Source: an uncultured Bacilli bacterium
GTDB lineage: Bacteria; Bacillota_I; Bacilli_A; RF39; UBA660
Reading direction: 5' to 3'
NCBI GenBank assembly: GCA_910585915.1
Contig: CAJUGF010000001.1
Coordinates: 4,622-68,621 of the forward strand
Length of the DNA: 64,000 nt
In this document: positions 45,151-64,000 of the stretch, in pieces
How the letters are laid out: every line of letters starts with the position of its first letter
Position numbering within the stretch: the stretch's first letter is position 1
Made by a program: the position numbers and the translations under genes
Notes under the pieces: model-generated
Seen by the model: only the letters and a program-made list of their open reading frames with translations
Told to the model about the DNA's origin: nothing
Database searches by the model: none

Positions 45151-45158
45151 GTGATTTT

Positions 45159-45611: not shown

Positions 45612-45695
45612 TTGCTATTTTTTCTTTTTATTTGAAAAAAATGAAATTTTATGTATAATATTGTTAGTATATTTTATTTAAAGGGGGAGTAATCC

Positions 45696-46265: not shown

Positions 46266-46286
46266 GTTTCTGATGGGAGAATAAAA

Positions 46287-49252: not shown

Positions 49253-49263
49253 GGTAATTAACT

Positions 49264-49659
49264 ATGGCTTATATGAAGTTTAAAGAGCTGACAAAATATT
49301 TTGATTTTAAGGAGGAGATAACAAAACTTGATTTGTTACCTCCTTATACAAAAGAGTACGTAAATGACAAGGAACATGTTTTTTTGGCTTATAAAAATAG
49401 TAAAGATTATATTGTTTTTACTGATAAAAAATTGATTTTATTCGATCGTGATCCATTAGCAATGTATTATAAAAAGGTCCATATTGTTCCTTATAAATCT
49501 ATATCTACTAGTGCAATTAATTTTTTGCCTGGTAAAGTAGAACTTTTATTTAGTTTGGATAGTGGTTATCAATTGCATCTTAATTTTGTTTCAATGAATC
49601 ATGAAAAGAAGGAAAATCTAAAACAAATTTATAATGTGATGATGAATTATAATTTGTAA
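49264..49659 (+). CDS. Small hypothetical protein (possible bacterial PH-like domain)
   Basis: 131 aa, no TM. The KKLILFDRD ... VPYKSIS pattern is compatible with bPH-type beta-sandwiches. Tentative. Confidence 0.3.
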   Translation: MAYMKFKELTKYFDFKEEITKLDLLPPYTKEYVNDKEHVFLAYKNSKDYIVFTDKKLILFDRDPLAMYYKKVHIVPYKSISTSAINFLPGKVELLFSLDSGYQLHLNFVSMNHEKKENLKQIYNVMMNYNL

Positions 49660-49686
49660 AGAAGCAAAAATTGCTTCTTTTTTTTA
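49660..49686 (+). terminator. Intrinsic terminator
   Basis: GAAGCAA-aaatt-TTGCTTC hairpin plus a T9 run. Confidence 0.65.
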
Positions 49687-49766
49687 CAGTTTTTTAATTA
49701 TTACTGGATATTTTTGTATCAGTGTGATATATTCATTTTAGGATAGAGATGGATCAAGGTGAGATT

Positions 49767-51389
49767 ATGAATAAGAAGAAGGTATGGTTATTTTCTGGAA
49801 TTATAGGGATATTATTATTATCAATGGGAATTAGTTTTGCATTATGGTTTCAAGTTTTTGAACAACAGGATACCAATGTTGTTCAATCTGCATGTTTTAA
49901 AGTAGAATTTACAGAAGGAAATGGAATTTCTTTAAGTAATGAGTTTCCAGTTTCTGATTCAGAAGGTTTACTTAAGACTCCTTATACTTTTTCTATAAAG
50001 AATATTTGTGATGATAGTGCAAGTTATCAAATTAATTTAGAATCGTTGATTCCTGAAGGAACGAGATTACCAGATCAATATTTAAAAGTTAATTTACAAG
50101 AAAATAATATATCAAGGGTAACAACAAAATTAGACAAGGAAGTTAATGTAGAAATGGAAACCGCAGTAACTATTAGTGGTGCTACTGATGCTTATAAATT
50201 ATATACAGGAATTTTAAATCCAAACGAAACCATAGAATTTAGTTTGAGATTATGGATGGATCATACGGTTACACAGCATGATGAAAATAGTATGAATGCT
50301 AATTTTTCAGCAAAGATTAATGTAATTACTGGATATTATCAGGATAGACGTGGTACTATGATGGCTGTTGTTTATAATCAACCTGTTGCTTATTTTTCAT
50401 ATCGAGAAGATATTACTAAAGTTATTATAGAAGATGTAATGGAACCAAAAGAAACTGAATTATTTTGGGATGTATCTGAGAATCAAGATGGTAGTGTTAT
50501 GAGTTATTTAATACCAAATGATGATAGTACAACTTACACTTTGTATTTGCAATCGGATGGTGGTATTAAGGCTAATCCTAAATCATCCCATTTGTTTTAT
50601 CGTTTTTCTAAGTTAGAGACTATTGAGGGATTGGAGCATTTAGATACTAGTAATGTTACAAGGATGAATGCTATGTTTTATGAGTGCTATAATCTACAAG
50701 AACTTGATTTAAAAACTTTTGATACTAGTAAAGTTATCGATATGTCTTTACTTTTTGCTGATTGTCAAAAGTTAACAAAGCTAGAAGTGGGATATTTAGA
50801 TACTAGTAATGTTACTAGTATGAAATCAATGTTTTATGGTTGCAGAGTTTTAACCAGTTTAGATTTAAGTCATTTTGATACCAGTAAGGTAACTGATATG
50901 CTTGGAATGTTTTCATATTGTTCTAAATTAAAATCTCTTGATTTAAGTCATTTTGATACAAGTAATGTTACTAGTATGGAATCAATGTTTTATTCTTGTG
51001 TCGAGTTAGTATCTTTAACTTTTGGAGATTCCTTTTTCACTAACAATGTTTTGAATATGAGTAAAATGTTTTATAGCTGTTCTAGTATTACTGATTTAAA
51101 CTTATCTGGTTTTGACACAAGTAAAGTTACTACTATGGGGGGAATGTTTGTATATTGTATTTCATTAGAGAAATTAGATTTAAGTTCTTTTAATACACAA
51201 AATGTTTCAAGTTATAATTCATATCATTTAGATTCAAATTATGGAATGTTTTATGGATGTTCTAAATTATCTAATATTATTTATGGAGATAATTTTGTTT
51301 ATAAGGAAGGTGCTCATGTTGATTCTATGTTTGATCGATGCCCTGCTAATCATCCATCACATGAATCATGGAATGGAGTGTCTTTCTAG
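49767..51389 (+). CDS. Surface protein: paralog-family N-domain A fused to BspA-type leucine-rich repeats
   Basis: N-terminus closely parallels the 64..1548 protein (CFK.EF..G.GI.L ... YQINLE.L ... YLKVNL). The C-terminal half has about 8 repeats of the LD(L/T)S.FDTSNVT.M..MFY.C pattern, the BspA/LRR_5 signature. Confidence 0.75.
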   Translation: MNKKKVWLFSGIIGILLLSMGISFALWFQVFEQQDTNVVQSACFKVEFTEGNGISLSNEFPVSDSEGLLKTPYTFSIKNICDDSASYQINLESLIPEGTRLPDQYLKVNLQENNISRVTTKLDKEVNVEMETAVTISGATDAYKLYTGILNPNETIEFSLRLWMDHTVTQHDENSMNANFSAKINVITGYYQDRRGTMMAVVYNQPVAYFSYREDITKVIIEDVMEPKETELFWDVSENQDGSVMSYLIPNDDSTTYTLYLQSDGGIKANPKSSHLFYRFSKLETIEGLEHLDTSNVTRMNAMFYECYNLQELDLKTFDTSKVIDMSLLFADCQKLTKLEVGYLDTSNVTSMKSMFYGCRVLTSLDLSHFDTSKVTDMLGMFSYCSKLKSLDLSHFDTSNVTSMESMFYSCVELVSLTFGDSFFTNNVLNMSKMFYSCSSITDLNLSGFDTSKVTTMGGMFVYCISLEKLDLSSFNTQNVSSYNSYHLDSNYGMFYGCSKLSNIIYGDNFVYKEGAHVDSMFDRCPANHPSHESWNGVSF

Positions 51390-51467
51390 TAAAGAGTAAA
51401 TATATTTTTATATTTGCTTTTTTTTAATGAAATTTCATTTTTTTCATATACTTTAGTGGTGAAGAAT

Positions 51468-51710
51468 ATGCAATTGATTAATCGAGTGCGCAATTTTTTA
51501 GTTGATCAAAATTATTATATTGATATTTATGAAAATAAAGTTCATATTTTTCATTATGTTGATATTATTAAATTACAGGATGAAGAGATTGTGCTACAAA
51601 TGGATGGCTTTCAAATTGTTTTAACAGGAGCAAATTTTCGGGTGGGGCGTTTAGAAAATCGTGAAATTTTAATTTCTGGTATTATAGAAAATTTGAAATT
51701 TGTGAGATGA
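51468..51710 (+). CDS. yqfC: YqfC/YabP-family sporulation protein
   Basis: About 80 aa. QDEEIVLQMDGFQIVLTGANFRVGRLENREILISGIIENLKF matches the YabP/YqfC beta-barrel family; followed by yqfD. Confidence 0.7.
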   Translation: MQLINRVRNFLVDQNYYIDIYENKVHIFHYVDIIKLQDEEIVLQMDGFQIVLTGANFRVGRLENREILISGIIENLKFVR

Positions 51711-52849
51711 AACATTATATTTGGATGGAAGTAAAAACAACGAATGAAAGTCGTTTGTTAGTAAAACTATTTAAAGCTGGCATTAATGTGTATGGTATTA
51801 CTTATGGAAATGGTGTTATTCGGTTTCAAATATGTGTAGAGGATCGAAAGTTATTAAAAAAAATTCCGGGATATGCGTTTCACAAAGTTCGAGATAGTGG
51901 TTTGTTTGCATTACTTGCTTATTTTAAAAAAAGAATTTTAGTATTATTGGGGATTATTTTGTTTGTTCTTTTTCTTTTTTTGGTTTCTCATGTGATGGTA
52001 TCTGTTCAAGTCATTCATTCTAATAAAGAAATTCGAGATTTGGTAACAAAATCTTTAGAGGATTATGGTATTCATCGACTTACATGGAAGAAAAATTTTC
52101 AGGAAATTGAAAATATTAAACAGCAAATTTTAAATGATTATCCTAATCAATTAGAATGGTTGGAAATAGAAGTAAGTGGGATGAAGTATATTGTCAGGAT
52201 TGAAGAACGTATTATTACGAATCCAGATGAAAAGAAGAAGCAATGTCATTTGATTGCAACAAAGTCTGCTATTGTTAAAAAAATGTTGTTTTCAAGTGGG
52301 GAAGCTAAGGTTTTAGTGAATGACTTTGTAAAAGATGGAGACATTTTAATTAGTGGAGAGCTAATTCATAATGAAGAGGTGAAAGGATTTGTTTGTGCAA
52401 CGGGGGATGTTTATGGGGAAGTTTGGTATACAGTGAAGGTAAGTTTACCACTTATTTATGAGGAAACAGAAGAAACTGGTAAAGTACGATGGAACTTTGG
52501 ATGGTCTAAAGGAGATCTTGATCATATTGTTTTTCGACCACGAGTTCAAAGTTATATAACCGAGAAAAAGCCATTGTTTACTCTTTTTGGAATTCAGTTT
52601 TCCTTTTTGAAGCAAAAGGAGGTTACCATTACACAGAAGACTTATACTGAAGAAGAAGCCATTAATAAAGCCCTTTTACTTGTTGATGAGAAAATGAAAC
52701 AGCAAATTGATCAAAATGATGAAATAACTACAAAAAAAGTTTTGAAAAAACAGCTGAATGATAGTACAATGGATATAGAAGTTTTTGTGTCTGTTGTTGA
52801 AAAAATTAGTAGACAGGAAGAATTTCAAGAGATCAAAGAAGAGGGTTAA
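51707..52849 (+). CDS. yqfD: Sporulation protein YqfD-like (stage IV sporulation family)
   Basis: About 380 aa with a single central TM; conserved pairing with yqfC upstream of ybeY/era, as in Bacillus. Confidence 0.65.
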   Translation: MKHYIWMEVKTTNESRLLVKLFKAGINVYGITYGNGVIRFQICVEDRKLLKKIPGYAFHKVRDSGLFALLAYFKKRILVLLGIILFVLFLFLVSHVMVSVQVIHSNKEIRDLVTKSLEDYGIHRLTWKKNFQEIENIKQQILNDYPNQLEWLEIEVSGMKYIVRIEERIITNPDEKKKQCHLIATKSAIVKKMLFSSGEAKVLVNDFVKDGDILISGELIHNEEVKGFVCATGDVYGEVWYTVKVSLPLIYEETEETGKVRWNFGWSKGDLDHIVFRPRVQSYITEKKPLFTLFGIQFSFLKQKEVTITQKTYTEEEAINKALLLVDEKMKQQIDQNDEITTKKVLKKQLNDSTMDIEVFVSVVEKISRQEEFQEIKEEG

Positions 52850-52852
52850 ATT

Positions 52853-53470
52853 ATGATACTAAATTTACTAACGAATGCAATTGCTAAGGTATGGCCGATG
52901 ATGACTATTTTTTTAGTAGTGTTGATTGCTATTCGTATTTCTTATATTCGTATTAATCATGAACGTTTTTGTTTTTATCGAGAGTTTTGGAATTTAATTT
53001 TTGTGGTTTATGCTATGATTTTATTCCAGCTTTTAACTGACTCTGAGATTAATACTAGTGGAGGATTAAATTTAGTTCCTTTTACTGAAATGTTTCGTTA
53101 TAAATTTGGTAGCACTTTGTTTTATTCTAATGTGGTAGGAAACATTTTGATTTTTTTGCCTTTTGGTTATTTTGTATCTGGCTATGTAAAGGCTACTAAA
53201 ATTAGTCATATATTGTTTTTGAGTGCAATTAGTAGTTTGACAGTTGAATTGGTACAATTACAAATTGGAAGAAGTTTTGACATTGATGATATCATATTAA
53301 ACGTAGTAGGGGCTATTCTTGGTTTTTTACTTTATGTTGCTTTGAATGCAATCAAGAAGCATATGCCTAAAATTCTTCAGAGTGATCTTTTTTATAATAT
53401 TATTTGTATTGTTTTATGTGTTATTTTTGTATTATATTTTATAAAGATTATTGGACTTGGGTGGTTATGA
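52853..53470 (+). CDS. VanZ-like family membrane protein
   Basis: Polytopic; C-terminal GRSFDIDDIILNVVGAILGF is the VanZ-like signature. Confidence 0.65.
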   Translation: MILNLLTNAIAKVWPMMTIFLVVLIAIRISYIRINHERFCFYREFWNLIFVVYAMILFQLLTDSEINTSGGLNLVPFTEMFRYKFGSTLFYSNVVGNILIFLPFGYFVSGYVKATKISHILFLSAISSLTVELVQLQIGRSFDIDDIILNVVGAILGFLLYVALNAIKKHMPKILQSDLFYNIICIVLCVIFVLYFIKIIGLGWL

Positions 53471-53910
53471 TGAAAAATGTTATCATTAATGATAGTTATG
53501 GTTATGAAGATTATGATTATTTAAATGAAGTATTAGAAGAAACTTTAAAGCATGAAGGGGCTACTGGGTCTATTCTATCCATTGTTTTTGTTGATGAAGA
53601 GGAGATACAAGATCTTAATCGTGAGTATCGTGGACGAGATGCAGTTACTGATGTTATTAGTTTTGCTTTTGAAGATAATGAGAATCACTTGCCAAATGAT
53701 GTACGTGTTTTAGGAGATATTTATATTTGTATTCCAAGAATGAAAGAACAGGCGAAGGAGTATGGCCATAGTGAAAAGCGGGAGTTATCTTTTTTAGTAG
53801 TGCATGGAATGCTTCATTTACTTGGATATGATCATATGGATGCTTTAGAAGAAAAAAGGATGTTTGCTTTGCAAGATGAAATTTTAGAAAGTCTTGACAT
53901 TCTTCGGTAG
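53467..53910 (+). CDS. ybeY: Endoribonuclease YbeY (rRNA maturation factor)
   Basis: HGMLHLLGYDH zinc-binding motif; about 148 aa; precedes era. Confidence 0.9.
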   Translation: MMKNVIINDSYGYEDYDYLNEVLEETLKHEGATGSILSIVFVDEEEIQDLNREYRGRDAVTDVISFAFEDNENHLPNDVRVLGDIYICIPRMKEQAKEYGHSEKRELSFLVVHGMLHLLGYDHMDALEEKRMFALQDEILESLDILR

Positions 53911-53929
53911 TTTGTAGTAGGAGGGTTTT

Positions 53930-54817
53930 ATGAAAAGTGGTTTTGTAAGTTTAATTGGTCGCCCTAATGTTGGAAAAAGTACACTTTTAAATACATTAAT
54001 TAATGAAAAGATTGCGATTACTTCTAATAAAGCACAAACAACAAGAAATATTATTCAAGGGATTTATAATGAGCCAGGATATCAGATTGTTTTCATGGAT
54101 ACTCCAGGTATTCATAAACCACAAGGAAAACTTGGAAAAATTTTGAATAAAGAGTCTTATTCTTTGACGAAAGATGTTGATGTGGTGCTTTTTGTGATTG
54201 ATGCTTCTACAGGGATTGGTCCTGGGGATAAGTTTATTATGGAAAGTTTAAAAACTAGCAAAGTTCCTGTTATTTTGGTAATGAATAAGATTGATAAAAT
54301 TTCTGATGAACAATTGATTTTGATGATTAATGAGTACAAAGACTATTTTAATTTTTCTGATATTGTACCAATTAGTGCGATTAAAAATGATAATGTAGAT
54401 CGTTTGGTCAATGTAATTAAAAAGTATTTAAAAGATGATGTCATGTATTTTGATGAAAAGACAAAAACGAGTAATAGTATTTATTTTATGGTTAGTGAAC
54501 TGGTTCGAGAGAAGCTTTTGCATGTTACGATTGAAGAAGTTCCTCATAGTTTGACTTGTATTACTACAAATTATGAAGAGGAAAAAGATTTGGTACGTAT
54601 TGCGGTTGATATTATTGTGGATCGTGATTCGATTAAGAAAATTGTTATTGGTCGTCATGGAGAACGTTTAAAAAAAGTAGGTACTCTTGCACGAAAAGAA
54701 ATGGAAGCGATGGTTCATAAAAAAGTGTATTTGGAGCTTTATGTAAAGACGGTTAAGAATTGGCGAGAAAAGGAAAAATATTTAAAGGAATTGGGTTTTC
54801 AAGATTTTGAAGCATAA
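53930..54817 (+). CDS. era: GTPase Era
   Basis: G1 GRPNVGKST, G3 DTPG, G4 NKID, and the C-terminal KH domain. Confidence 0.93.
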   Translation: MKSGFVSLIGRPNVGKSTLLNTLINEKIAITSNKAQTTRNIIQGIYNEPGYQIVFMDTPGIHKPQGKLGKILNKESYSLTKDVDVVLFVIDASTGIGPGDKFIMESLKTSKVPVILVMNKIDKISDEQLILMINEYKDYFNFSDIVPISAIKNDNVDRLVNVIKKYLKDDVMYFDEKTKTSNSIYFMVSELVREKLLHVTIEEVPHSLTCITTNYEEEKDLVRIAVDIIVDRDSIKKIVIGRHGERLKKVGTLARKEMEAMVHKKVYLELYVKTVKNWREKEKYLKELGFQDFEA

Positions 54818-54972
54818 AATATAAAACTTATGAATAGAATTCTATCATGGGAAGCATAATAATATTAGAAAAGGTGATAGAATGAATGCAAAAGAATTGT
54901 GGAATATGTTTCGAAAAACGGGGAAAATTGAATATTATTTAGCATATAAAAAAGCAGAAAAGAAGTGAGAGA

Positions 54973-55704
54973 ATGATTACAAAGGTGGAAGGTTTTATCC
55001 TAAGTGAAGTAAGTTATGGAGAAACTTCTAAGGTAATCAATATCTTAACAAAAGAATATGGCCTGGTAGGCGTCATGTGTAAGGGTGCGAAAAGTATGAA
55101 AAGTAAATTACGTGCTCTTACGATGCGTTTTACTTATGGCTTTTTTTATCTTTATAAAAAAGAAGGAAAACTATCTTTACTAAAAGATGTTGATATAATT
55201 GATTCTTTTGATCATCTTCATACTGATATTTTTCTAATTGGATATCTAAATTACTTATCAGAACTTACAGGACAAGTTTATAAAGAAAGCCATGATTTGT
55301 CACTGTTTTCTCTTTTTTTGGAAACTATTCGAAAAATTGATTCAGGATTAGATCCAATGGTACTTACTAATATTTTAGAAGTAAAGTATTTGGATTATTT
55401 GGGTGTAGGTCTTAATTTAGATGGTTGTAATAAGTGTGGCAGAACGAATGGGATTGTGACAATTGATCCTGATATTGGTGGGTATTTATGTGATCATTGT
55501 TTAAAGGATGAAAGGGTTGTTTCATTAAAGACAGTTAAGATGTTACGCATGTATTATTATGTGGATATTAAAAGTATTACTGAACTTAAAATTAGTGATG
55601 AAGTGAAACAGGACATTAATCTTTTTTTGAATCGTTATTATGACCGATATACAGGAATTTATTTAAAAAGTAAGGATTTTTTGTTTAAATTAAAAAATTT
55701 ATGA
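54973..55704 (+). CDS. recO: DNA repair protein RecO
   Basis: N-terminal OB fold (GFILSEVSYGETSKVINILTKEYGLV) and C-terminal zinc finger CNKCG ... CDHC. Confidence 0.85.
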   Translation: MITKVEGFILSEVSYGETSKVINILTKEYGLVGVMCKGAKSMKSKLRALTMRFTYGFFYLYKKEGKLSLLKDVDIIDSFDHLHTDIFLIGYLNYLSELTGQVYKESHDLSLFSLFLETIRKIDSGLDPMVLTNILEVKYLDYLGVGLNLDGCNKCGRTNGIVTIDPDIGGYLCDHCLKDERVVSLKTVKMLRMYYYVDIKSITELKISDEVKQDINLFLNRYYDRYTGIYLKSKDFLFKLKNL

Positions 55705-55753
55705 TTCCCTTTTTCAAAAAAGTATGGTACTATCTTGTTTACGGGTGATTTTT

Positions 55754-56443
55754 ATGACATTGAATGATTTTAAGCAAGAAGCAATATTAGAGGTAAAAAA
55801 ACAAGCTTTAAACCATGTTTTTTATGCAGAGGATATTAAAAATAACTTTTCTAATGTACGAAAGTTTGAAGAAAAATATCAAATATCATTGTTAGAAGCT
55901 GAACAAGTTTTAGAATATTGGAATCAATTAGTGAGAGAACAAAAGTATTCTTCAATGGTGGCTTTGAATGCAAAAGAATATCTTAATTTAATAACAGAAG
56001 AGCAAGGAAGAAATTTTTTGATGAATGCTTTAAGAATAATGGTTCCTATTTCTGGGAATGAAGATTTTTGGATTGCGCGATTGTATCAATGTAATGGTTT
56101 ATTTGAAATTATCAAGGCAATGATAGAACCAAGTATGGTAGCATCTGAAAAAGCTTATCAATTTATTACGTCTCATTTTTCTTTTACATCTCAAGTAATG
56201 GATCAAATGGATGAATCCATTAGCCCATTATTGTTAAATGAAGAGTTTTTAAAGTATTGTAGTTATTTGTTAAAAAGTAATTCTCCTTTGTTACAAGAGG
56301 ATGGTTTTGTAAGGCAACTGTTGCTTTTAATGCGTGTAAACGGAATGCATGAGGGATATTGTTATAATGATTTATCATCTTTAAAAGCTAATTTCTTTCA
56401 TATGAATCGAAATTTAGCAAGAAGAATTACTGATAATTTTTAG
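55754..56443 (+). CDS. Hypothetical protein, tandem paralog A
   Basis: Shares motifs with the next gene (QEAILEVKKQALNHVFYAEDIKNNF vs NQAIDAVGQQALHHIFYAKNFRENL; EEFLKYCSYLLKSNSPLLQEDGF vs DQFLSYCNYLINHRSALMLENEY). Confidence 0.45.
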   Translation: MTLNDFKQEAILEVKKQALNHVFYAEDIKNNFSNVRKFEEKYQISLLEAEQVLEYWNQLVREQKYSSMVALNAKEYLNLITEEQGRNFLMNALRIMVPISGNEDFWIARLYQCNGLFEIIKAMIEPSMVASEKAYQFITSHFSFTSQVMDQMDESISPLLLNEEFLKYCSYLLKSNSPLLQEDGFVRQLLLLMRVNGMHEGYCYNDLSSLKANFFHMNRNLARRITDNF

Positions 56444-56462
56444 AATAATTAGGAGGTAGATT

Positions 56463-57197
56463 ATGGAGTTAAGATCTTTTTCTAATCAGGCAATTGATGC
56501 GGTAGGGCAGCAAGCATTACATCATATATTTTATGCAAAGAATTTTCGCGAAAATTTAGAGGAAGTTATTAATTTTGAACAAGAGCAAGGTGTTTATCTT
56601 CATCATTTGATTGATATTTGGTATTATTTGCTTGGAATTAGTGAAGATAATTTGTATATGCCAATCGTTCGTCAAAATGTAGAACAGTATATTCGATATT
56701 ATTGGCTTAAGCATCGTGTGGTACCATTAGAGAAGTTTTACATGACAGATAAAATATTAAAGGGTAATCGTGAAATATTTCTAAAAGATTTTCCAAGTTT
56801 TGCAATTTGGAAGGAAAAAGCGTGTTTCGAAAGTTTAAGAAGTCGTAAGTTTTTGTATTTTTTTGCTAGTCACAAAAAAATAACACAAGAAGTTTTAGAT
56901 TTTTATTTTTCAATGTTTGGAATTACAACAGCTATTATGAGTGAGGAAAAAAAAGAATTTTTACGTTTGATTTGTGATGATCAGTTTTTGTCATATTGTA
57001 ATTATTTGATTAATCATCGTTCTGCTTTGATGTTGGAAAATGAGTATTTTTTTAAGGTGAGAGAAGTTTTAGAAGCCAATATGGATTATACTTTTACTAG
57101 TGCTCCTCATGCTATTTCTGGAACTTTTTTTGAGGAAAATGAACGTGTATTAAAACGTGTAAATGAATTAAATCCAACAGATGATATTTACAGATGA
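56463..57197 (+). CDS. Hypothetical protein, tandem paralog B
   Basis: RBS AGGAGG; paralogous to 55754..56443. Confidence 0.45.
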   Translation: MELRSFSNQAIDAVGQQALHHIFYAKNFRENLEEVINFEQEQGVYLHHLIDIWYYLLGISEDNLYMPIVRQNVEQYIRYYWLKHRVVPLEKFYMTDKILKGNREIFLKDFPSFAIWKEKACFESLRSRKFLYFFASHKKITQEVLDFYFSMFGITTAIMSEEKKEFLRLICDDQFLSYCNYLINHRSALMLENEYFFKVREVLEANMDYTFTSAPHAISGTFFEENERVLKRVNELNPTDDIYR

Positions 57198-57209
57198 TGA
57201 TTCTGTTTC

Positions 57210-57239
57210 TTGACTTTTTTCGTTTTTTTATTTTATAAT
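57210..57239 (+). promoter_or_regulatory. Sigma-A-type promoter for the T-box leader
   Basis: TTGACT (-35), 18-bp spacer, TATAAT (-10). Confidence 0.6.
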
Positions 57240-57245
57240 TTGGTT

Positions 57246-57385
57246 ATACAAGCGTTGAAGGCCTTGGAAAGCTAGAGCTATATAATTTAAGAGAGATTCT
57301 TCCAATGAATAAGTAGGGTGGAACCGCGGCTGAAACCGTCCCTATGAATTTTTTGGAGTTTTTTTATTTAGAGAGGGAGATGTTT
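57246..57385 (+). promoter_or_regulatory. T-box riboswitch leader (candidate Gly specifier GGC) upstream of the LOG-GNAT-glyQS operon
   Basis: Conserved T-box sequence AATGAATAAGTAGGGTGGAACCGCGG at 57305-57329. An AGAGA element at about 57290. A GGC codon in the upstream stem region (about 57260). U-runs (GAATTTTTTGGAGTTTTTTT) before the first ORF. Confidence 0.65.
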
Positions 57386-57386
57386 T

Positions 57387-57902
57387 TTGAATATTTTTGT
57401 TGGATGTTCTTCTAGAGAAGAAATTGCAAAAGATTATTTAGATCTTGCTACAGAAGTAGGAGATCGTTTAAAAGGAGTTCATTTCATTATTGGTGGATCT
57501 TTACATGGTATGATGGGTAGTGTAGTTAAACATATTCCTAAACCAGATATTACACAAATTATTTTAAAAGATTATGTGAATGAAGGAGAATCTTATTCAT
57601 CAAGTTATCAAATTTGTGAAACTTCTTTTGAAAGAATGGAACACATTTGGAATGCTACTGATATTTTTTTAATTTTACCAGGTGGAACAGGAACACTTGG
57701 AGAAATTATTACTTTTTTAGAAGAAAATCGAATGAAGAAAGAAAAGAAAAAAATTATAGTATTTAATTATCAAGGATTTTATGATGATATTATAGCATTT
57801 GTAGAAAAAACTAAGGAAAAGAAATTTTGTAATGATGATATTTTGGCTGGACTTTCTTTTGCAAATTGTTTGGATGAAGTTGTAGAATTGATGAAAGGAT
57901 AA
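57387..57902 (+). CDS. LOG-family (TIGR00730) nucleotide-binding protein / putative nucleotide 5-prime-monophosphate nucleosidase
   Basis: IIGGSLHGMMGSV and PGGTGTLGEI motifs characteristic of LOG/YvdD Rossmann proteins; TTG start in the ORF track. Confidence 0.7.
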   Translation: MNIFVGCSSREEIAKDYLDLATEVGDRLKGVHFIIGGSLHGMMGSVVKHIPKPDITQIILKDYVNEGESYSSSYQICETSFERMEHIWNATDIFLILPGGTGTLGEIITFLEENRMKKEKKKIIVFNYQGFYDDIIAFVEKTKEKKFCNDDILAGLSFANCLDEVVELMKG

Positions 57903-57906
57903 GCAT

Positions 57907-58437
57907 ATGAAATATTTTAAAAAAATTGATGGTGAACGTATTTATTTGTCACCAGTATCTATAGATGATGCAGAGATTTATACAAAATGGATGAATGATG
58001 AAACGATTTGTAAGAATACAAATGCTCTTGCAAGGATTGTGCCACTTCAAAAGGAACAAGAATTTCTTAATCAAGCGAATGATATTTTAGCAATTGTTCG
58101 AAAAGAAGATGATGAACTTTTAGGAAATATTAGTTTTGGGCGAGTTGATTATCATAATCGTAATGCCGAAATTGGTTTGTTTATAGGAGAGATGGAAAAT
58201 CGTCATAAAGGATATGGCACAGAAGCTTTGAAATTAATGTTAGATTATGGTTTTAATCAATTAAATTTTCATGCCATAACATTAAGCGTTTTATCTTTTA
58301 ATGAAGAAGCTATTCAATGTTATGAAAAATTAGGATTTCAAGTTGTTGGTAGGATTAAAGAGGTAATGTATTATCATAATGTTTATTATGATCGAATTAT
58401 TATGGAAATATTAGAAAGTGATTGGAGGAATTTATGA
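57907..58437 (+). CDS. GNAT-family N-acetyltransferase
   Basis: HKGYGTEALKLMLDYGF (acetyl-CoA binding Q/RxxGxG/A-like) and the RimJ/RimL-like architecture. Confidence 0.7.
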   Translation: MKYFKKIDGERIYLSPVSIDDAEIYTKWMNDETICKNTNALARIVPLQKEQEFLNQANDILAIVRKEDDELLGNISFGRVDYHNRNAEIGLFIGEMENRHKGYGTEALKLMLDYGFNQLNFHAITLSVLSFNEEAIQCYEKLGFQVVGRIKEVMYYHNVYYDRIIMEILESDWRNL

Positions 58438-59822
58438 TGCGTGCGCAAACAATGGAAGAATTGGTTAATTATTGTAAACAATATGGTTTTATATTTCAAG
58501 GAAGTGAAATTTATGGGGGGTTATCTAATACTTGGGATTATGGTCCATTGGGAATTGAGCTTAAGGAGAATGTAAGAAGAGCTTGGTGGAAGAAATTTAT
58601 ACAAGAAAATCCATATAATTATGGAATTCAAAGTGCAATTTTGATGAATCCTAAGGTTTGGGAAGCGACTGGACATGTTCAAAATTTTCATGATCCTTTA
58701 ATGGATTGTAAAAAATGTAAGATGCGTCATCGTGCTGATAAGATTGTTGATGCTTATTTACATGAACAAGGTTTAGAGGAAAGTAGTGATGGTTGGAGTA
58801 ATGAAAAATTAGAAAGTTTTATTAAAGAAGCTGGTATTACTTGTCCTAATTGTGGAGCTTGTGATTTTACAGAAATTCGTCAATTTCAAATGATGTTTAA
58901 AACTTTTATGGGAGTTACAGAAGATGCGACATCTACTATTTATTTAAGACCAGAAACAGCACAAGGAATGTTTGTTAATTTTTTGAATGTTCAAAGGAGT
59001 ATGAGGCTTAAACTTCCTTTTGGAATTGGGCAGACTGGTAAGAGTTTTCGTAATGAAATAACCCCAGGAAATTTTACGATTCGTACTCGTGAATTTGAAC
59101 AAATGGAATTAGAATTCTTTTGTAAACCTGGAGAGGATTTGGAATGGTTTGGATATTATAAAAGTTTTTGTATGGATTTTTTGACTAGTCTTGGGCTTAG
59201 TAAAGAGAATTTAAGATATCGTGATCATAAGAAAGAGGAGTTATCTTTTTATTCTGTAGCTACGACAGATATTGAATACCGCTATACTCATGGCTTTGAT
59301 GAATTGTGGGGAATAGCGGATCGAACAGATTATGATTTGTCTGTTCATCAGGACTATTCTAATAATGATTTACGTTATTTAGATCCTGAAACAAATGAAA
59401 AATATTTACCTTATGTTATTGAACCAGCTGTGGGCCTTGATCGAATGATTTTAGCTTTTTTAACGGAAGGTTATCAAAAGGAAATGCTAGAAGGAGAGGA
59501 ACGGACCGTTTTAAAAATTCATCCTTTTTTAGCACCAATTAAGGTGACAGTTCTTCCATTGATTAAGAAGATACATGGAAATAAAGCACGAGAGATTTAT
59601 GGGGATCTTGCAAAGTATTTTCAAGTATCTTATGATGAAGCTGGAAGTATTGGTAAGAGATATCGTAGAAGTGATGCTATTGGTACTCCTTTTTGCATTA
59701 CTATTGATGATGAAACGTTAAATAATAAAACGGTTACAGTCAGGGATCGAGATACAATGGAGCAAATTACTTTACCGATTTCTGAGTTAAATGATTATAT
59801 TTTGGAGCGAATTCAATTTTAA
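58434..59822 (+). CDS. glyQS: Glycine--tRNA ligase (alpha2 dimeric class II type)
   Basis: N-terminus MEELVNYCKQYGFIFQGSEIYGGLSNTWDYGPLG, class II motifs (FRNEITPGNFTIRTREFEQMELEFF), and a zinc-knuckle C..C ... C..C insertion; ATGA overlap with the GNAT gene. Confidence 0.93.
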   Translation: MMRAQTMEELVNYCKQYGFIFQGSEIYGGLSNTWDYGPLGIELKENVRRAWWKKFIQENPYNYGIQSAILMNPKVWEATGHVQNFHDPLMDCKKCKMRHRADKIVDAYLHEQGLEESSDGWSNEKLESFIKEAGITCPNCGACDFTEIRQFQMMFKTFMGVTEDATSTIYLRPETAQGMFVNFLNVQRSMRLKLPFGIGQTGKSFRNEITPGNFTIRTREFEQMELEFFCKPGEDLEWFGYYKSFCMDFLTSLGLSKENLRYRDHKKEELSFYSVATTDIEYRYTHGFDELWGIADRTDYDLSVHQDYSNNDLRYLDPETNEKYLPYVIEPAVGLDRMILAFLTEGYQKEMLEGEERTVLKIHPFLAPIKVTVLPLIKKIHGNKAREIYGDLAKYFQVSYDEAGSIGKRYRRSDAIGTPFCITIDDETLNNKTVTVRDRDTMEQITLPISELNDYILERIQF

Positions 59823-59846
59823 ATAAAATATATGATAAAATGATTG

Positions 59847-59888
59847 AAATCCTATTTCTTGTTTGAGTAAGAAATAGGATTTTATTTT
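59847..59888 (+). terminator. Intrinsic terminator after glyQS
   Basis: AATCCTATTTCT / AGAAATAGGATT 12-bp stem followed by a T-rich run. Confidence 0.7.
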
Positions 59889-59911
59889 CAATTTGTTAAA
59901 AATGAGGAGAT

Positions 59912-60622
59912 ATGGTAAGATATGGTAAGGATTTTGGGGTGTACTGTATGAATCAAAAAAGATTTGCTGAAGGTATTTGTTTTACAAAATTATTTTGGAT
60001 TTTTTTACTTGGCTCAATTTTTGGTGCATATTATGAACAAATCTTAAATTTATTTATTCATTATCATTACCATCACGAGTTTGTTTGGCAATTACGTCGT
60101 GGCGTTATTTATGGTCCTATCAGCCCAATTTACGGTGTAGGAGCGGTTTTGTTTACTATTTTATTACTTCGTAAGGAAAAAAGTAATTTTAGTATCTTTT
60201 TAAAAGGGGCTTTGATTGGTGGATCTTTTGAATATTTGATTAGTTTTTTTCAGGAAACTTTTTTTGGTACTATTTCGTGGGATTATAGTCAGGATTTTTT
60301 AAATATTAATGGAAGGACTACGATTCCGTATATGATTGTGTGGGGACTTTTAGCGCTTTTATTTGCTAAAGTTATATATCCTACGATTTCTAATATTATT
60401 GAATCTTTTCCGCAAAAATTTGGAGATGTTTTTACTGGTATTTTGGTAGTGTTGTTAGTTTTAGATTTTTTTGTTTCTTGGGGATCTTTAATTCGACAAA
60501 CATTACGTCATAAGGGATATGAACCAATTACATTTGTGGGAACATTTTTTGACAAACATTATAATGACGAAGTATTACGACAATATTATGCAAATATGAA
60601 GGTTATTAAAGTGAATAAGTGA
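59912..60622 (+). CDS. Polytopic membrane protein (possibly DUF1113 / putative ABC-transporter type IV family)
   Basis: 5-6 TM; YGPISPIYGVGA segment. Family assignment tentative. Start may be the ATG at 59948. Confidence 0.45.
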   Translation: MVRYGKDFGVYCMNQKRFAEGICFTKLFWIFLLGSIFGAYYEQILNLFIHYHYHHEFVWQLRRGVIYGPISPIYGVGAVLFTILLLRKEKSNFSIFLKGALIGGSFEYLISFFQETFFGTISWDYSQDFLNINGRTTIPYMIVWGLLALLFAKVIYPTISNIIESFPQKFGDVFTGILVVLLVLDFFVSWGSLIRQTLRHKGYEPITFVGTFFDKHYNDEVLRQYYANMKVIKVNK

Positions 60623-60717
60623 TGTTCCTTGTTCTAATTCAACATAGGCTTTTCCTTAAAGTTTAAGTAAGGATTTATGTTTTTTTTATGAAAGGCTGAG
60701 TGATAGGTGAAGTATTT

Positions 60718-61521
60718 ATGATGATTAAAAATGTGGAGTTAACCAGTGATATTCAAAGGGATTATGTACAAATGGTACATAAAATTCCGAAACTTACTGT
60801 CAAGGAAGAAAAATCTTTATTTGAGGGATATTATAATAGTAAAGATTCTCATCTTAAAGATGAAAATTCAATGTTGGAATTTAGTTATGAAGGAAAATCT
60901 TTTCATTTTGATAAAAATGATATTTCATCTTATGAATTTATGGCAGTATGTAAAGAAATTTTGAAACCTTCTTACTATCTTGTTTTATATTATCGTTATT
61001 TTTGTCTTGATCCAAAGTCTTTAAGTTTTATTGCTCATATGTTTTTTTCAACAAGACAGAATATTTCGGTTTTAATTGAGCGTGCTTTTTATGTGTTGAA
61101 ACCTTATTTAAATTGTTCAAAGGAGTATTTAAGAGTCCTTGAATGCTTAATGTCTAAGGAAGGGGATAATTTTAAATATTTGAATGTGCATCCGATTGAT
61201 CCAAAGGATATTGTTCGGTTTTGGTATGCATATCCTTATTTGAATTTGAAAGAACGAGAAGTTTTAAGAGAACACTTGCTTGGAAAGTATGATGTGTTAA
61301 CTTTTCCACTTTATCAATTGCTTGAAATGTCTAAAAAAGAATATAGTGTATGTTTGAATTCTTTACAAGAAAAGTTGGAAGTAATATTTTCTGATTATCA
61401 AAAATATTATAAGCAAGAAGAGTTATGTATTCGTGCATACAAAACAAAGATTTATAATATGGATTTGAATAGTAAGTTTTGTTTTTTTGATGATGATATT
61501 AAACGACGTTTAACTATATAA
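60718..61521 (+). CDS. Sigma-factor-like protein lacking region 2 (paralog of the C-terminal part of the next gene)
   Basis: Region-1.2-like N-terminus (DYVQMVHKIPKLTVKEEKSLFEGY), a region-4-like HTH (STRQNISVLIERAFYVLK), and a shared C-terminal module (DIVRFWYAYPYLNLKEREVLREHLLGKYD). No region 2 core. Confidence 0.55.
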   Translation: MMIKNVELTSDIQRDYVQMVHKIPKLTVKEEKSLFEGYYNSKDSHLKDENSMLEFSYEGKSFHFDKNDISSYEFMAVCKEILKPSYYLVLYYRYFCLDPKSLSFIAHMFFSTRQNISVLIERAFYVLKPYLNCSKEYLRVLECLMSKEGDNFKYLNVHPIDPKDIVRFWYAYPYLNLKEREVLREHLLGKYDVLTFPLYQLLEMSKKEYSVCLNSLQEKLEVIFSDYQKYYKQEELCIRAYKTKIYNMDLNSKFCFFDDDIKRRLTI

Positions 61522-61601
61522 AGAGAGTAAGATAATATTTTTTAGAAGAACTCTTGTTATTCAAATCTTTTTCTTTTATAATACTTTTCGAGGTGGGGGG
61601 A

Positions 61602-62831
61602 ATGGTTTCTAATAATAGCATGTTTTCTTTTTCTAATTTAGAAACTGATTATTTAACGATGATACACGGTATTCCGCTTCTTTCTTCTAATCAACTACTT
61701 GCATTGTTTTCTGAATATAAAAGTACATTAAATGAAGATATTTTGAAGCAAATTGTGGAGCATAACTTGCGATTAGTACCTGGAATCGCGAAATTGTATT
61801 TGAATAAATGTAATCATTTGAAATTCATGGATCTTATTCAAGAGGGAAATTATGGTCTTATGAAAGCAGCACGATCCTTTGATCCAAATTATGGTACTGC
61901 TTTTTCCACATTTGCTACTTCTTATATTCATGGATATATTAAGAATGCAATTGCAATGCAAGAGCGTTTGATTAAAGAAGATCCACGCTTTGTTAGTCAA
62001 TTGATGCGATATCAAAAACTAAAAAGGAAATATCAAAATTGTGAAGAGGAAGCACCTTCTGATGAAGAATTATGTTCTATATTAGGTGTTTCTTTTGATA
62101 CTTTACGATTGTTTGAAGAAGTTAATGTTAGAAAAATTACAAGTCTTGATGCCAAACTTAAAGAAGATGCTGATGATTGTTTGCTTGATGTCATTTCAAG
62201 TGCGGAAGATGTGTCTACTGAGATGGTTGATAATTATATGGATCAAGAAATTATGGTTTTATGTAAATGGCTTTTAAAATCTGTTTCATATTTTGTGTTA
62301 TATTATCAATATTTTTCGAAGAAAGTAATACTTTTAAGTGATCTTGGAAATCTTATGGGGAGTAGACGTCAGAATGCTTCTCAATATCTTAAAAAAGCAA
62401 TTCAACAACTAAAACCTTATTTTACGTCTTCTTCACTTTATTCTGAAACTTTACAAGCTATTAAAACGAGGGAAGGTAAGAATTATAGTTTTTTATCTTT
62501 GAAACCAATTTCTCCTCAAGATATTACTAAATATCTTTATGCTTATCCTTTTTTGATGCCTATAGAACAGAAAGTGCTTTATTGGGAATTGTTTGGAAAG
62601 TATGAAAGAGAATGTCCTTTTGTTTATGATTTACTTTGTATGAGTAAAGGTGAATATTATTCAACTTTGTCTTCTTTACAGTTTAGATTAAAAGAAATAT
62701 TCCAGAATTATAAAATGTATAAAGACTATGAAAAACAATGTATTGAAACTCATAAAGCGAAAATTTATAAACTTGATTTGCATTATGAGTTAGTAGATAA
62801 TAAGCTTGTTAAATCTTTTAATTCAAAGTAA
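61602..62831 (+). CDS. Atypical sigma-70-family factor with ~150-aa C-terminal extension
   Basis: RBS GAGGTGGGGGG. Region 2 (LRLVPGIAKLYLNKCNHLKFMDLIQEGNYGLMKAARSFDPNYGTAFSTFATSYIHGYI). Region-4-like HTH (SRRQNASQYLKKAIQQLK). The C-terminal module (DITKYLYAYPFLMPIEQKVLYWELFGKYE) is shared with the 60718 protein. Confidence 0.7.
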   Translation: MVSNNSMFSFSNLETDYLTMIHGIPLLSSNQLLALFSEYKSTLNEDILKQIVEHNLRLVPGIAKLYLNKCNHLKFMDLIQEGNYGLMKAARSFDPNYGTAFSTFATSYIHGYIKNAIAMQERLIKEDPRFVSQLMRYQKLKRKYQNCEEEAPSDEELCSILGVSFDTLRLFEEVNVRKITSLDAKLKEDADDCLLDVISSAEDVSTEMVDNYMDQEIMVLCKWLLKSVSYFVLYYQYFSKKVILLSDLGNLMGSRRQNASQYLKKAIQQLKPYFTSSSLYSETLQAIKTREGKNYSFLSLKPISPQDITKYLYAYPFLMPIEQKVLYWELFGKYERECPFVYDLLCMSKGEYYSTLSSLQFRLKEIFQNYKMYKDYEKQCIETHKAKIYKLDLHYELVDNKLVKSFNSK

Positions 62832-62902
62832 TTAGTTTGCGAGGGAGTTTTTAGCGTGTTATAATAAGTGTATCGAATTTCTATTTTGGAAAGAGGATTA
62901 TT

Positions 62903-64000
62903 ATGAGAGATGTAGAAATAAAAAATGTAAAAGGTACCTTTGATTATTTACCCAAAGAACAAAAAATGAGAGATTATGTTACCAGAACTTTATCTGATGT
63001 TTTTGAAATGTTTGGGTATTTGCCAGTTGTTACTCCTACACTTTGTTATTATGATGTTTTAGCTAGTAAGTATGGTGGAGGAGCAGAAATATTAAAAGAG
63101 GTTTATAAGTTGTCTGATCAAGGTAAAAGGGATCTTGCTCTTCGCTATGATTTAACAGTTCCGTTTGCTAAGCTAATTGCTTTGACAAAAGATTTATCTA
63201 TGCCATTTAAACGATATGAAATTGGGAAAGTTTTTAGAGATGGTCCAGTAAAAATAGGAAGAAATCGTGAGTTTATTCAATGTGATGTTGATGTAGTAGG
63301 AATTAAAGATGTTTTGGTAGATGCAGAACTTATTAGTCTTTATGTTTTTGCATTTGATTCGTTTGGTATTGATTATGTGGTTGACTATAATAATCGGAAG
63401 TTAATGACAGGTATTTTAGAAGAATGTGGAGTTTGTCATGAAAAAATGACAGAAGTTATTACAATTATAGATAAGTTTAAGAAATTAACTAAAGAAGATA
63501 TTCAAAAGGAATTCCAAAATGTTGGAATGAGTCATGAGCAAATTGAAAGTTTGTATGAGTATTTTAATTTAGGCTTTGATGGTATTTTAGAACGTTTTCG
63601 AAATACATCAAATGAAATGGTTCAAATGGGTATTCAAGAACTTCAAGAAGTTCAAAATTATTTGAAAGCTTTAGGAATTCAAGAACACACCAATATTGAT
63701 TTGACGCTTGCTCGAGGGCTTAATATTTATACAGGAACTGTTTTTGAAGTATTTGCAAAAAATAGTAAAGTAACTTCCGCTATTGGTGGTGGGGGAAGAT
63801 ATGATAATATTATTACTAATTTTGTGGATGATGGGAATGAATATCCAGCGATTGGATGTAGTTTTGGATTAGATGCTATAGTGGAAGTGTTGAAAGAACA
63901 AGATGAAAATCGTTTCCGTAATAATTTGGATTTATTTATTGTTCCTTTAAATACTAAAAAAGAATCTTTGAAATTGGCTAATGAGTTACGAAAGTTTGGA
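62903..64000 (+). CDS. hisS: Histidine--tRNA ligase (5-prime partial in window; continues beyond 64000)
   Basis: RBS AAGAGGA. MRDVEIKNVKGTFDYLP ... LRYDLTVPFAKLIA (class II motif 1/2, HisRS-specific), ... GGGGRYD. Confidence 0.9.
   Translation, partial: MRDVEIKNVKGTFDYLPKEQKMRDYVTRTLSDVFEMFGYLPVVTPTLCYYDVLASKYGGGAEILKEVYKLSDQGKRDLALRYDLTVPFAKLIALTKDLSMPFKRYEIGKVFRDGPVKIGRNREFIQCDVDVVGIKDVLVDAELISLYVFAFDSFGIDYVVDYNNRKLMTGILEECGVCHEKMTEVITIIDKFKKLTKEDIQKEFQNVGMSHEQIESLYEYFNLGFDGILERFRNTSNEMVQMGIQELQEVQNYLKALGIQEHTNIDLTLARGLNIYTGTVFEVFAKNSKVTSAIGGGGRYDNIITNFVDDGNEYPAIGCSFGLDAIVEVLKEQDENRFRNNLDLFIVPLNTKKESLKLANELRKFG

What the first reader, a model, noticed from the sequence alone, without database searches (positions are those of the whole stretch)
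60718..62831. Second locus of atypical sigma-like proteins: a sigma with a C-terminal extension plus a region-2-less paralog immediately upstream
The 61602..62831 protein has a sigma region 2 and a 4.2-like HTH, but continues about 150 aa beyond it. The upstream 60718..61521 protein shares the HTH and the extension (about 35% identity across YAYP(Y/F)L ... LLGKY(D/E) and LYY(R/Q)YF ... QN(I/A)S ... LKPY(L/F)) but has no region 2. It retains only a region-1.2-like N-terminus. A sigma-like protein unable to bind core RNAP but retaining the promoter-binding and extension modules could act as a competitor or anti-sigma-like partner. Together with the giant sigma, this suggests a lineage-specific expansion of extended sigma-like regulators.
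Basis: partly seen in the sequence, partly recalled or inferred. Interest (0 to 1): 0.75.

Follow-up and report, generated by a model that had tools for sequence, protein, structure and literature searches.

The report
Sigma factor pair with duplicated region 4
Two neighbouring genes encode members of an undescribed branch of bacterial sigma factors that carry a second, degenerate copy of the promoter-binding region 4, and one of the two has lost the part that binds RNA polymerase, so it may now modulate transcription rather than start it.

Summary
ORF B (61602..62831, 409 aa) is a complete sigma-70 protein (regions 1.2, 2, 3, 4) with about 130 further residues. ORF A (60718..61521, 267 aa) shares region 4 plus that extension (42% identity over 179 aa) and a region-1.2-like N-terminus, but has no region 2 or 3.

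New points:
- The "extension" is a helical linker, a second degenerate non-basic copy of region 4 (r4') and a conserved tail.
- The r4+r4' module defines a family of at least 160 clusters, named only "sigma-70 family" in uncultured gut Bacilli MAGs. It includes ~400-aa and ~1200-aa sigmas and forms without region 2.
- A is the ortholog of a full-length sigma (413 aa in one relative; a single 407-aa gene in another) that lost regions 2.1-3 by internal deletion.
- A's module has not evolved faster than its full-length ortholog's.
- Elsewhere, independent region-2-less module proteins sit upstream of a full family sigma and are under purifying selection (dN/dS 0.24).
- The module is not homologous to the tail of the window's giant sigma.

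A's role as competitor or partner is plausible but untested. Decay after duplication remains a serious rival.

The parts
60705..60712 (+). Ribosome-binding site AGGTGAAG of ORF A
   Evidence: Sequence. The same AGGTGA lies before the A-type orthologs in L001 and L092.
60718..61521 (+). ORF A: 267-aa sigma-derived protein without regions 2-3 (r1.2 stub + r4 + linker + r4' + tail)
   Evidence: The identical architecture is seen on 11 contigs.
60745..60831 (+). A: region-1.2-like N-terminal segment (res 10-38)
   Evidence: BLASTP 38% identity over 29 aa to B. Family r1.2-r3 profile positions 2-38, 15.5 bits. Weak NCBIfam sigma-32 match to model positions 17-47.
60832..60939 (+). A: decayed stub of regions 2.1/2.2 plus the r3.2-like linker (res 39-74). 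This is the site of the internal deletions.
   Evidence: Alignments A1/A4: YNSKDSHLKDENSMLE aligns to Y..KCNHLKFMDLIQE. The near-invariant D77 and Q80 are lost. Gaps of 26 and 116 columns separate it from the full-length orthologs.
60940..61119 (+). A: region 4 (res 75-134), recognition helix STRQNISV
   Evidence: Family module profile 168.9 bits. Pfam Sigma70_r4 15 bits. Aligned to B's r4.
61120..61218 (+). A: helical linker (res 135-167)
   Evidence: Aligned to B 278-310. B's model has helix 277-297 there.
61219..61398 (+). A: r4', the second degenerate region-4 copy (res 168-227)
   Evidence: Aligned to B 311-370. The family's r4' against its own r4 gives hhalign Prob 96-97%.
61399..61518 (+). 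A: conserved C-terminal tail (res 228-267) with A-type signature ..FFDD.DIKRRL..I
   Evidence: Alignment A4.
61554..61582 (+). Sigma-A-type promoter-like site TTGTTA-17-TATAAT upstream of B
   Evidence: Scan. Nearly identical sequence lies upstream of the B ortholog in L001. Function not shown.
61602..62831 (+). ORF B: 409-aa sigma-70-family protein, r1.2-r2-r3-r4-linker-r4'-tail
61752..61967 (+). B: region 2 (res 51-122)
62001..62222 (+). B: region 3 (res 134-207)
   Evidence: Pfam Sigma70_r3 14 bits, below cutoff. NCBIfam RpoS/RpoD alignments span it. Helices in the model.
62253..62432 (+). B: region 4 (res 218-277), recognition helix SRRQNASQ
   Evidence: hhalign of the family r4 against generic sigma r4: Prob 98.5%, E 2.4e-15. 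NCBIfam alignments run to res 271-284.
62433..62531 (+). B: helical linker (res 278-310)
   Evidence: AF2 helix 277-297, pLDDT >93.
62532..62711 (+). B: r4', second degenerate region-4 copy (res 311-370), non-basic recognition helix GEYYSTL
   Evidence: hhalign against the family r4: Prob 96-97%, E 3e-9 to 2e-10, 60 columns. Against generic r4: Prob 86%. The helix pattern repeats that of r4. Mean net charge -1 against +4.2 for r4.
62712..62828 (+). B: C-terminal tail (res 371-409), long helix 370-390

Best explanation
The locus holds two tandem paralogs of an uncharacterised sigma-70 subfamily.

The family hallmark (shown): a C-terminal module of about 190 aa. It consists of a canonical region 4, a helical linker, a second degenerate non-basic region-4-like helix-turn-helix (r4') and a conserved tail.

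B (shown and inferred): B is a complete sigma (r1.2-r2-r3-r4-r4') with its own conserved sigma-A-type promoter-like site. By inference it forms a holoenzyme and directs transcription of an unknown regulon. Also by inference, r4' serves as a protein-docking or regulatory surface rather than a second DNA reader.

A, anatomy (shown): A is the ortholog of the upstream full-length paralog, which is 413 aa in a relative and the only copy, 407 aa, in another. A lost regions 2.1-3 through internal in-frame deletions. It keeps an r1.2 stub and the whole module, including the RQN recognition-helix motif it shares with B.

A, function (inferred): A cannot nucleate a holoenzyme or open a promoter. The selective retention of its module suggests it acts in trans as a module-only accessory factor. 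It could compete with B for the beta-flap or the -35-type site, or for whatever binds r4', and so damp or retune B-dependent transcription.
For: Anatomy of A and B:
- Searches give the domain content described above.
- The AF2 model of B, built with 56 homologs, has mean pLDDT 90.3, with 93-97 through the extension.

r4' as a region-4 copy:
- Profile-profile alignment runs in register over 60 columns: Prob 96-97% to the family's own r4 and 86% to generic r4. Controls: r2 0.2%, r3 64% over the HTH only.
- The helix pattern of r4 is repeated in the model.
- r4' has an acidic recognition helix and net charge -1, against +4.2 for r4.

The family:
- 162 representative proteins hold the whole module at residues ~215-410.
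- The module is repeated in tandem in some members.

Origin of A:
- Syntenic loci are L001 (413 aa + 410 aa) and L092 (a single 407 aa).
- The NJ tree groups A with these upstream-type copies at 99% bootstrap.

Constraint on A:
- Intact ORF on 11 contigs, 3 alleles.
- Near-invariant family residues and A-type signature residues are kept through to the C-terminal tail.
- Tajima relative-rate counts for unique changes, A versus its full-length ortholog: 20 vs 18, 11 vs 26 and 12 vs 21.
- The leftover r2.2 stub, in contrast, has lost the invariant D and Q.

Recurrence:
- L103/L104 carry region-2-less module-first proteins (about 1000 aa and 451 aa), followed in L103 by a full 452-aa family sigma. 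dN/dS is 0.24 for the 451-aa pair.
Against: - There are no expression, binding or structural-complex data.
- Within-species polymorphism in A (pN/pS about 0.4-1.1, from 6-8 substitutions) is too sparse to show constraint and leans toward relaxation, against 0.1-0.2 for B.
- The -10 box conserved upstream of A-type genes in L001 and L092 (TACAATACG) is not evident upstream of A in the window.
- Only one species shows this particular truncation.
- The family shows frequent gene breakage (L096, L098, L105).
- One relative keeps only the A-type copy, so the two copies may be redundant and A may simply be decaying.
- r4' was identified by profile comparison and secondary structure only. No 3D superposition was possible.
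Confidence: 0.5

Rival explanations
1. A is a non-functional remnant. After tandem duplication the two sigmas were redundant. In this lineage the upstream copy suffered in-frame deletions and is on its way to loss. Its intact frame and conserved module only reflect a recent event.
For: - L092 keeps a single copy at the locus, so one copy suffices.
- Family genes are often broken (L096, L098, L105).
- A's within-species pN/pS is about 0.4-1.1.
- The conserved -10 box of A-type genes is not evident upstream of A.
- No second species has the same truncation.
Against: - There are two separate deletions, and the r2.2 stub has decayed, which argues for elapsed time. Yet 804 nt stay open and the module shows no rate acceleration relative to the full-length ortholog.
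- A-type-specific residues are kept up to the last residues.
- The RBS is kept.
- Region-2-less module proteins are demonstrably under selection elsewhere.
Confidence: 0.33
2. A is one half of a split, two-subunit sigma. It supplies region 4 while another protein supplies region 2, as in T4 gp55/gp33 or B. subtilis SigO-RsoA (comparison from general knowledge).
For: - A retains r4 and an r1.2-like segment.
- Module-only proteins are recurrent in the family.
Against: - No region-2-only ORF exists in the 64-kb window. The family r1.2-r3 profile hits only B and the giant sigma, both of which have their own r4.
- In L096 and L105 the apparent r2-only plus module-only pairs are frameshifted single genes.
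Confidence: 0.05
3. A works as an ordinary stand-alone HTH transcription factor, like LuxR/GerE-type proteins whose fold resembles region 4. It would bind its own operators independently of B and of RNA polymerase.
For: - r4 is a DNA-binding HTH that is positively charged across the family.
- Region-2-less family proteins of ~450 and ~1000 aa exist as selected genes.
Against: - In the A/B clade the recognition helix has lost two of the basic residues of the family consensus (TRQRIRQ becomes (S/T)RQN(I/A)S).
- There is no Pfam GerE or other transcription-factor hit.
- The genomic pairing with a full sigma that shares the RQN motif points to a linked function.
Confidence: 0.12

Closest known systems
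Group 2/3 sigma-70 factors (RpoS, SigB/F/G type)
   Same: B has r1.2, r2, r3 and r4 and no r1.1. Its best NCBIfam matches are RpoS and RpoD C-terminal models (112-117 bits). The top structural hits are sigma-S and SigA chains.
   Different: All scores lie far below the equivalog cutoffs (354-394 bits). B carries about 130 extra C-terminal residues with a second region-4-like domain, which none of these models cover.
ECF sigma factors with C-terminal regulatory extensions (ECF41/42/56 type, e.g. SigG1; PMC7730460)
   Same: An extra domain is fused after region 4 and is presumed to regulate sigma activity.
   Different: Those are sigma2-sigma4-only proteins whose extensions are SnoaL-like or other non-sigma folds (PMC7730460 abstract). 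Here the sigma has r1.2 and r3, and the extension is itself a degenerate region-4 copy.
PhyR-type sigma mimicry (anti-anti-sigma; PMC4551977)
   Same: A sigma-derived protein that no longer acts as a sigma but could titrate a partner of the real sigma.
   Different: PhyR keeps sigma2- and sigma4-like parts fused to a receiver domain. A has no region 2 and no receiver domain, and no NepR-like partner is evident.
Split or two-subunit sigmas (T4 gp55 + gp33; B. subtilis SigO-RsoA) - from general knowledge
   Different: No r2-only partner lies near A. A's neighbour B is a complete sigma.
SigI-type sigmas with a non-canonical C-terminal domain
   Different: In SigI the C-terminal domain replaces region 4 (general knowledge). 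Here a canonical region 4 is kept and a second copy is added.

Membership tests
Sigma-70 family (ORF B) | Region 2 (core binding 2.2, -10 recognition 2.3/2.4) | tested here: met
Sigma-70 family (ORF B) | Region 4 helix-turn-helix | tested here: met
   Pfam r4 is not reported for B alone. NCBIfam full-length sigma models align through res 271-284. The family r4 profile matches generic sigma r4 at Prob 98.5%.
Sigma-70 family (ORF B) | Binds core RNA polymerase and directs promoter-specific initiation | not testable with these tools
   Needs biochemistry or multimer modelling.
Sigma-70 family (ORF A) | Region 2 | tested here: not met
   No Pfam r2. The family r1.2-r3 profile matches only positions 2-38. 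The alignment shows 26- and 116-column deletions. A is sigma-derived but is not a sigma factor.
Primary sigma (RpoD/SigA, group 1) for B | Scores above the RpoD equivalog cutoffs; region 1.1 present | tested here: not met
   RpoD_Cterm 111.8 bits against cutoff 354. Region 1.2 starts at about residue 10-15, leaving no room for a region 1.1. Bacillus and Erysipelotrichaceae SigA match the window's giant sigma at 45-46% but B at only 28-29%.
ECF sigma with C-terminal extension | Sigma2-sigma4 only, no region 3 or 1.2 | tested here: not met
   B aligns to RpoS/RpoD models across r1.2-r3. The model shows r3 helices.
r4+r4' module family (new, defined here) | Complete ~190-aa module: r4, linker, r4', tail | tested here: met
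   Family module profile: A 168.9 bits and B 169.5 bits, each covering profile positions 2-193/196. 162 representatives.
r4+r4' module family: the window's giant sigma (29061..33080) | Complete module after region 3 | tested here: not met
   Only its r4 matches (39 bits, profile positions 4-68). Nothing matches the linker, r4' or tail.
Anti-sigma factor (ORF A) | A recognised anti-sigma domain, or demonstrated sigma binding | tested here: not met
   No Pfam or NCBIfam anti-sigma domain. Binding is not testable here.
Split sigma (ORF A as the r4 half) | A separate region-2-only partner gene | tested here: not met
   A six-frame profile search of the window finds r2 only in B and the giant sigma.

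The most novel reading that the evidence does not exclude
The r4-linker-r4'-tail module may be an autonomous regulatory unit of a previously unrecognised sigma system in uncultured low-GC gut Bacilli. Sigmas would carry it in cis, in ~400-aa and ~1200-aa forms. Region-2-less module-only proteins (A here; the ~450-aa and ~1000-aa proteins in L103/L104) would be dedicated trans-acting partners. They would dock on the beta-flap or on the sigma's own r4' to switch, block or extend promoter recognition. This would be a 'co-sigma' layer built from recycled region-4 domains.
Probability: 0.25. Interest if true: 0.8.

Novelty: new variant of a known kind. Interest (0 to 1): 0.6.

Why it matters
Sigma factors are among the best-studied bacterial regulators. 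I know of no described sigma-70 protein with a second region-4 copy, and full-text searches found none. A family of more than 160 clusters has this architecture, with giant and region-2-less derivatives. It may point to an unexplored way of building promoter specificity or sigma regulation in a group of uncultured gut bacteria. The A/B pair is a compact test case. It offers a complete sigma and, beside it, a natural 'region 4 only' derivative that has been kept intact. Its effect on transcription can be assayed directly with heterologous Firmicute RNA polymerase.

Tried and rejected
- Pfam and PDB sequence searches of the extension alone returned nothing significant.
- The 4-sequence hhalign of the extension against r4 was in register but weak (Prob 12%). 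It became convincing only with 56 homologs.
- The AF2 run with 4 sequences gave an unusable extension (pLDDT below 50).
- Pattern scans of genome contigs and metagenome contigs with the 4-sequence module alignment found no relatives, because the patterns were too strict.
- tblastn of the module against phage genomes gave no match.
- Homology between the module and the tail of the giant sigma was tested three ways and rejected.
- The nearest GTDB genomes by GlyRS (75% identity) have no A/B homolog within 10 kb of glyS, so they gave no synteny information.
- Within-species dN/dS for A and B had too few substitutions. hisS shows 5 non-synonymous and 0 synonymous changes, so the measure is uninformative.
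- Several 'short' family proteins first looked like further region-2-less forms but are frameshifted or stop-interrupted full-length genes (P0044 in L096, P0085 in L098, P0110 in L105).
- Rfam found nothing in the window.
Full report
**1. What is at the coordinates**

The window has about 29% G+C and nearly all genes lie on the + strand. Around the finding the gene order is recO, two unknown ORFs, a LOG-family gene, a GNAT acetyltransferase, glyS, a CmpB-type membrane protein, ORF A, ORF B and hisS.

- ORF A starts at ATG 60718, behind AGGTGAAG, and encodes 267 aa. Gene callers use GTG 60700 and report 273 aa.
- ORF B starts at ATG 61602, behind GAGGTGGGGGG, and encodes 409 aa.
- B is preceded by TTGTTA-17-TATAAT (61554..61582). 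This site is almost identical upstream of its ortholog in a relative.

**2. Check of the observation**

BLASTP of A against B gives 42% identity over 179 ungapped residues (A 73-251, B 216-394, E 8e-41). A second segment gives 38% over 29 N-terminal residues.

- B has Pfam Sigma70_r2 at 50.8 bits and a weak r3.
- NCBIfam RpoS/RpoD models align B residues 16-284 (112-117 bits, far below the equivalog cutoffs). About 125-130 residues therefore lie beyond region 4.
- A has no r2 or r3. It gives only a sub-threshold r4 hit.
- A family profile of r1.2-r3 matches A only at positions 2-38, at 15.5 bits, against 205.5 bits for B.

**3. What the extension is**

Taken alone, the extension has no Pfam or PDB sequence match.

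I searched 1.84 billion representative proteins with a HMMER profile of the shared module. It found 162 proteins at E<=1e-3, of which 103 were at E<=1e-10. Nearly all hold the whole module at residues ~215-410.

I aligned 56 of the 370-520-aa members (A3) and compared profiles with hhalign:

| Query | Target | Result |
|---|---|---|
| Extension core (B 311-370) | Family's own region 4 (B 218-277) | Prob 96-97%, E 3e-9 to 2e-10, 60 columns in register |
| Extension core | Generic sigma r4 | Prob 86% |
| Extension core | r2 (control) | Prob 0.2% |
| Extension core | r3 (control) | Prob 64%, HTH only |
| Family's first r4 | Generic r4 | Prob 98.5% |

AlphaFold2 with this alignment gives mean pLDDT 90.3, with 93-97 through residue 390. 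The helix pattern of r4 (203-224, 227-238, 245-251, 256-275) recurs at 305-317, 320-331, 340-344 and 349-366. A linker helix (277-297) separates the two sets, and a tail helix (370-390) follows.

Across the family r4 is basic (mean net charge +4.2) and its recognition helix has the consensus T-R-Q-R-I-R-Q. The second copy, r4', has net charge -1 and an acidic helix start. I infer that r4' is a protein-interaction or regulatory domain rather than a second DNA reader.

**4. The family**

Sources name members only [quoted passage not shown], from MAGs. One member lies in GCA_947624115.1.

- There are two main size classes, about 400 aa and about 1200 aa.
- The giants have r1.2-r4 at residues 1-280, the module, and further r4-like HTH hits at about 640-690 and 810-915.
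- Some members repeat the whole module in tandem (P0035, P0046, P0050). P0032 has two modules and no region 2.
- The module has no match in phage genomes.
- By GlyRS, the window organism is nearest (75% identity) to uncultured gut Bacilli MAGs and to CAG:582/CAG:956/CAG:594-type genomes.

**5. Origin of A**

- In L001, a relative in which the B ortholog is 53% identical, the locus reads CmpB, a glycosyltransferase, a 413-aa sigma (Pfam r2 30.6 bits), the 410-aa B ortholog and hisS.
- In L092 the syntenic locus holds a single 407-aa sigma between CmpB and hisS.
- An NJ tree of the module groups A with the 413-aa and 407-aa proteins (99% bootstrap) and groups the two B-type proteins together (100%).
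- Alignment shows that A lacks 26 columns (helix 2.1) and 116 columns (regions 2.2 to 3.2).
- A keeps a short stub, YNSKDSHLKDENSMLE, which aligns to Y..KCNHLKFMDLIQE. The family's near-invariant D and Q are lost in it.

A is therefore a full-length sigma paralog that suffered internal in-frame deletions after the split from the L001 lineage.

**6. Is A still under selection?**

For:
- The 804-nt frame is intact on 11 contigs in 3 alleles.
- Module invariants and A-type signature residues are kept to the very C-terminus.
- Tajima relative-rate counts show no acceleration against the full-length ortholog. Unique changes are 20 vs 18 with the L092 protein as outgroup, and 11 vs 26 and 12 vs 21 with B-type outgroups.
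- The r2 stub, by contrast, has decayed.

Against, or neutral:
- Within-species pN/pS for A is about 0.4-1.1, from 6-8 substitutions, against 0.1-0.2 for B. The counts are too small to decide, and hisS shows 5 non-synonymous and 0 synonymous changes.
- The TACAATACG -10 box upstream of A-type genes in L001 and L092 is not evident upstream of A.
- The family contains broken genes: L096 and L105 are frameshifted, and L098 has an in-frame TAA.

**7. Recurrence of region-2-less forms**

L103 carries an array of four genes:
- a region-2-less protein of at least 926 aa;
- a 1005-aa region-2-less protein with the module at residues 13-219;
- a 451-aa region-2-less protein with the module at residues 13-217;
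- a complete 452-aa family sigma, with r1.2-r3 at 12-193 and the module at 208-411.

L104 holds orthologs of the 1005-aa and 451-aa proteins at 71% and 89% identity. The 451-aa pair has dS 0.22 and dN/dS 0.24.

Region-2-less module proteins are therefore genuine genes under purifying selection. In L103 they sit upstream of a full sigma of the same family, as A does here. This arrangement arose independently.

**8. Mechanism**

Shown:
- B has every sequence and fold feature of a sigma, plus r4'.
- A has r4, r4' and the tail, but lacks the regions that sigma-70 proteins use to bind the beta-prime coiled-coil and to melt the -10 element. That role of region 2 is established knowledge of the family.

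Inferred:
- B is an alternative sigma. The giant sigma at 29061..33080 is much closer to Bacillus and Erysipelotrichaceae SigA: 45-46% identity and 227 bits, against 28-29% and 95 bits for B.
- A most likely acts in trans through its module. It could occupy the beta-flap or a -35-type site recognised through the RQN helix it shares with B, or it could titrate the partner of r4'.

I put this at about 0.5. Decay without function gets about 0.33. A stand-alone transcription factor gets about 0.12, and a split sigma about 0.05.

**9. Relation to the giant sigma**

The module profile matches the giant sigma only through its r4 (39 bits). BLASTP and profile searches find nothing in its 900-aa tail.

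Directly after its r4, that protein carries four 26-aa tandem copies of its own r4.2 HTH core. "Region-4 reuse" is thus a shared theme, but the extensions are not homologous.

**10. Novelty**

Four full-text searches found no description of sigma factors with a second region 4, or of region-2-less sigma paralogs of this kind. Absence from that library is not proof. I class the finding as a new variant of a known kind: sigma-70 with a new domain architecture and derived module-only paralogs.

Noticed in passing
window 30351..30680 (giant sigma ORF 29061..33080, res 431-540): Directly after its region 4.2, the 1339-aa sigma has four tandem 26-aa repeats (NEPxLEEVGKKFNVTRERTxQIENxM). These are copies of its own region-4.2 helix-turn-helix core.
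   Followed up: partly
window 29061..33080 and 59912..62831: The giant sigma, lying between ftsW/spoVE-like and murG genes, is the most SigA-like gene in the window (45-46% identity to Bacillus and Erysipelotrichaceae SigA). In those relatives sigA lies a few kb downstream of glyS, a position occupied here by CmpB-A-B. BLAST with the ORFs of the Bacillus and Erysipelotrichaceae loci, including those between glyS and sigA, found no further match in the window, so no dnaG-like gene was detected.
   Followed up: partly
window 55724..56443 and 56463..57197: Two adjacent ORFs of 239 and 244 aa have no Pfam match. They are distant tandem paralogs (23% identity, E 2.5e-15). ORFs of like size (230 and 245 aa, also without Pfam hits) occupy the same place after recO in L092.
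   Followed up: partly
window 1..64000, especially upstream of glyS (58422) and hisS (62904): Rfam at gathering thresholds finds nothing in the whole window, so no T-box leader precedes glyS or hisS. The hisS upstream gap is only 72 nt and holds a TTGCGA-17-TATAAT promoter-like site with a TG extension.
   Followed up: no
L103:1-6731 and L104:410-4824: Arrays of region-2-less family proteins of ~1000 aa and 451 aa lie next to a full 452-aa sigma of the same family. They are conserved between two related metagenomic genomes (71% and 89% identity; dN/dS 0.24 for the 451-aa pair).
   Followed up: partly
L096:4375-5624, L098:2-1138, L105:115-2379: Family sigma genes interrupted by one frameshift (L096, seen in 4 contigs), an in-frame TAA in region 2 (L098) or two frameshifts (L105). 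These are either pseudogenes or assembly errors.
   Followed up: partly
window 59845..59884: A long (18-pair) A+T-rich hairpin followed by a T run lies right after glyS. It is terminator-like on both strands.
   Followed up: no
L102:6211-10801: A 1195-aa giant member of the module family lies directly downstream of whiA in one metagenomic contig. Contexts of other members differ, so no conserved operon partner was seen.
   Followed up: no
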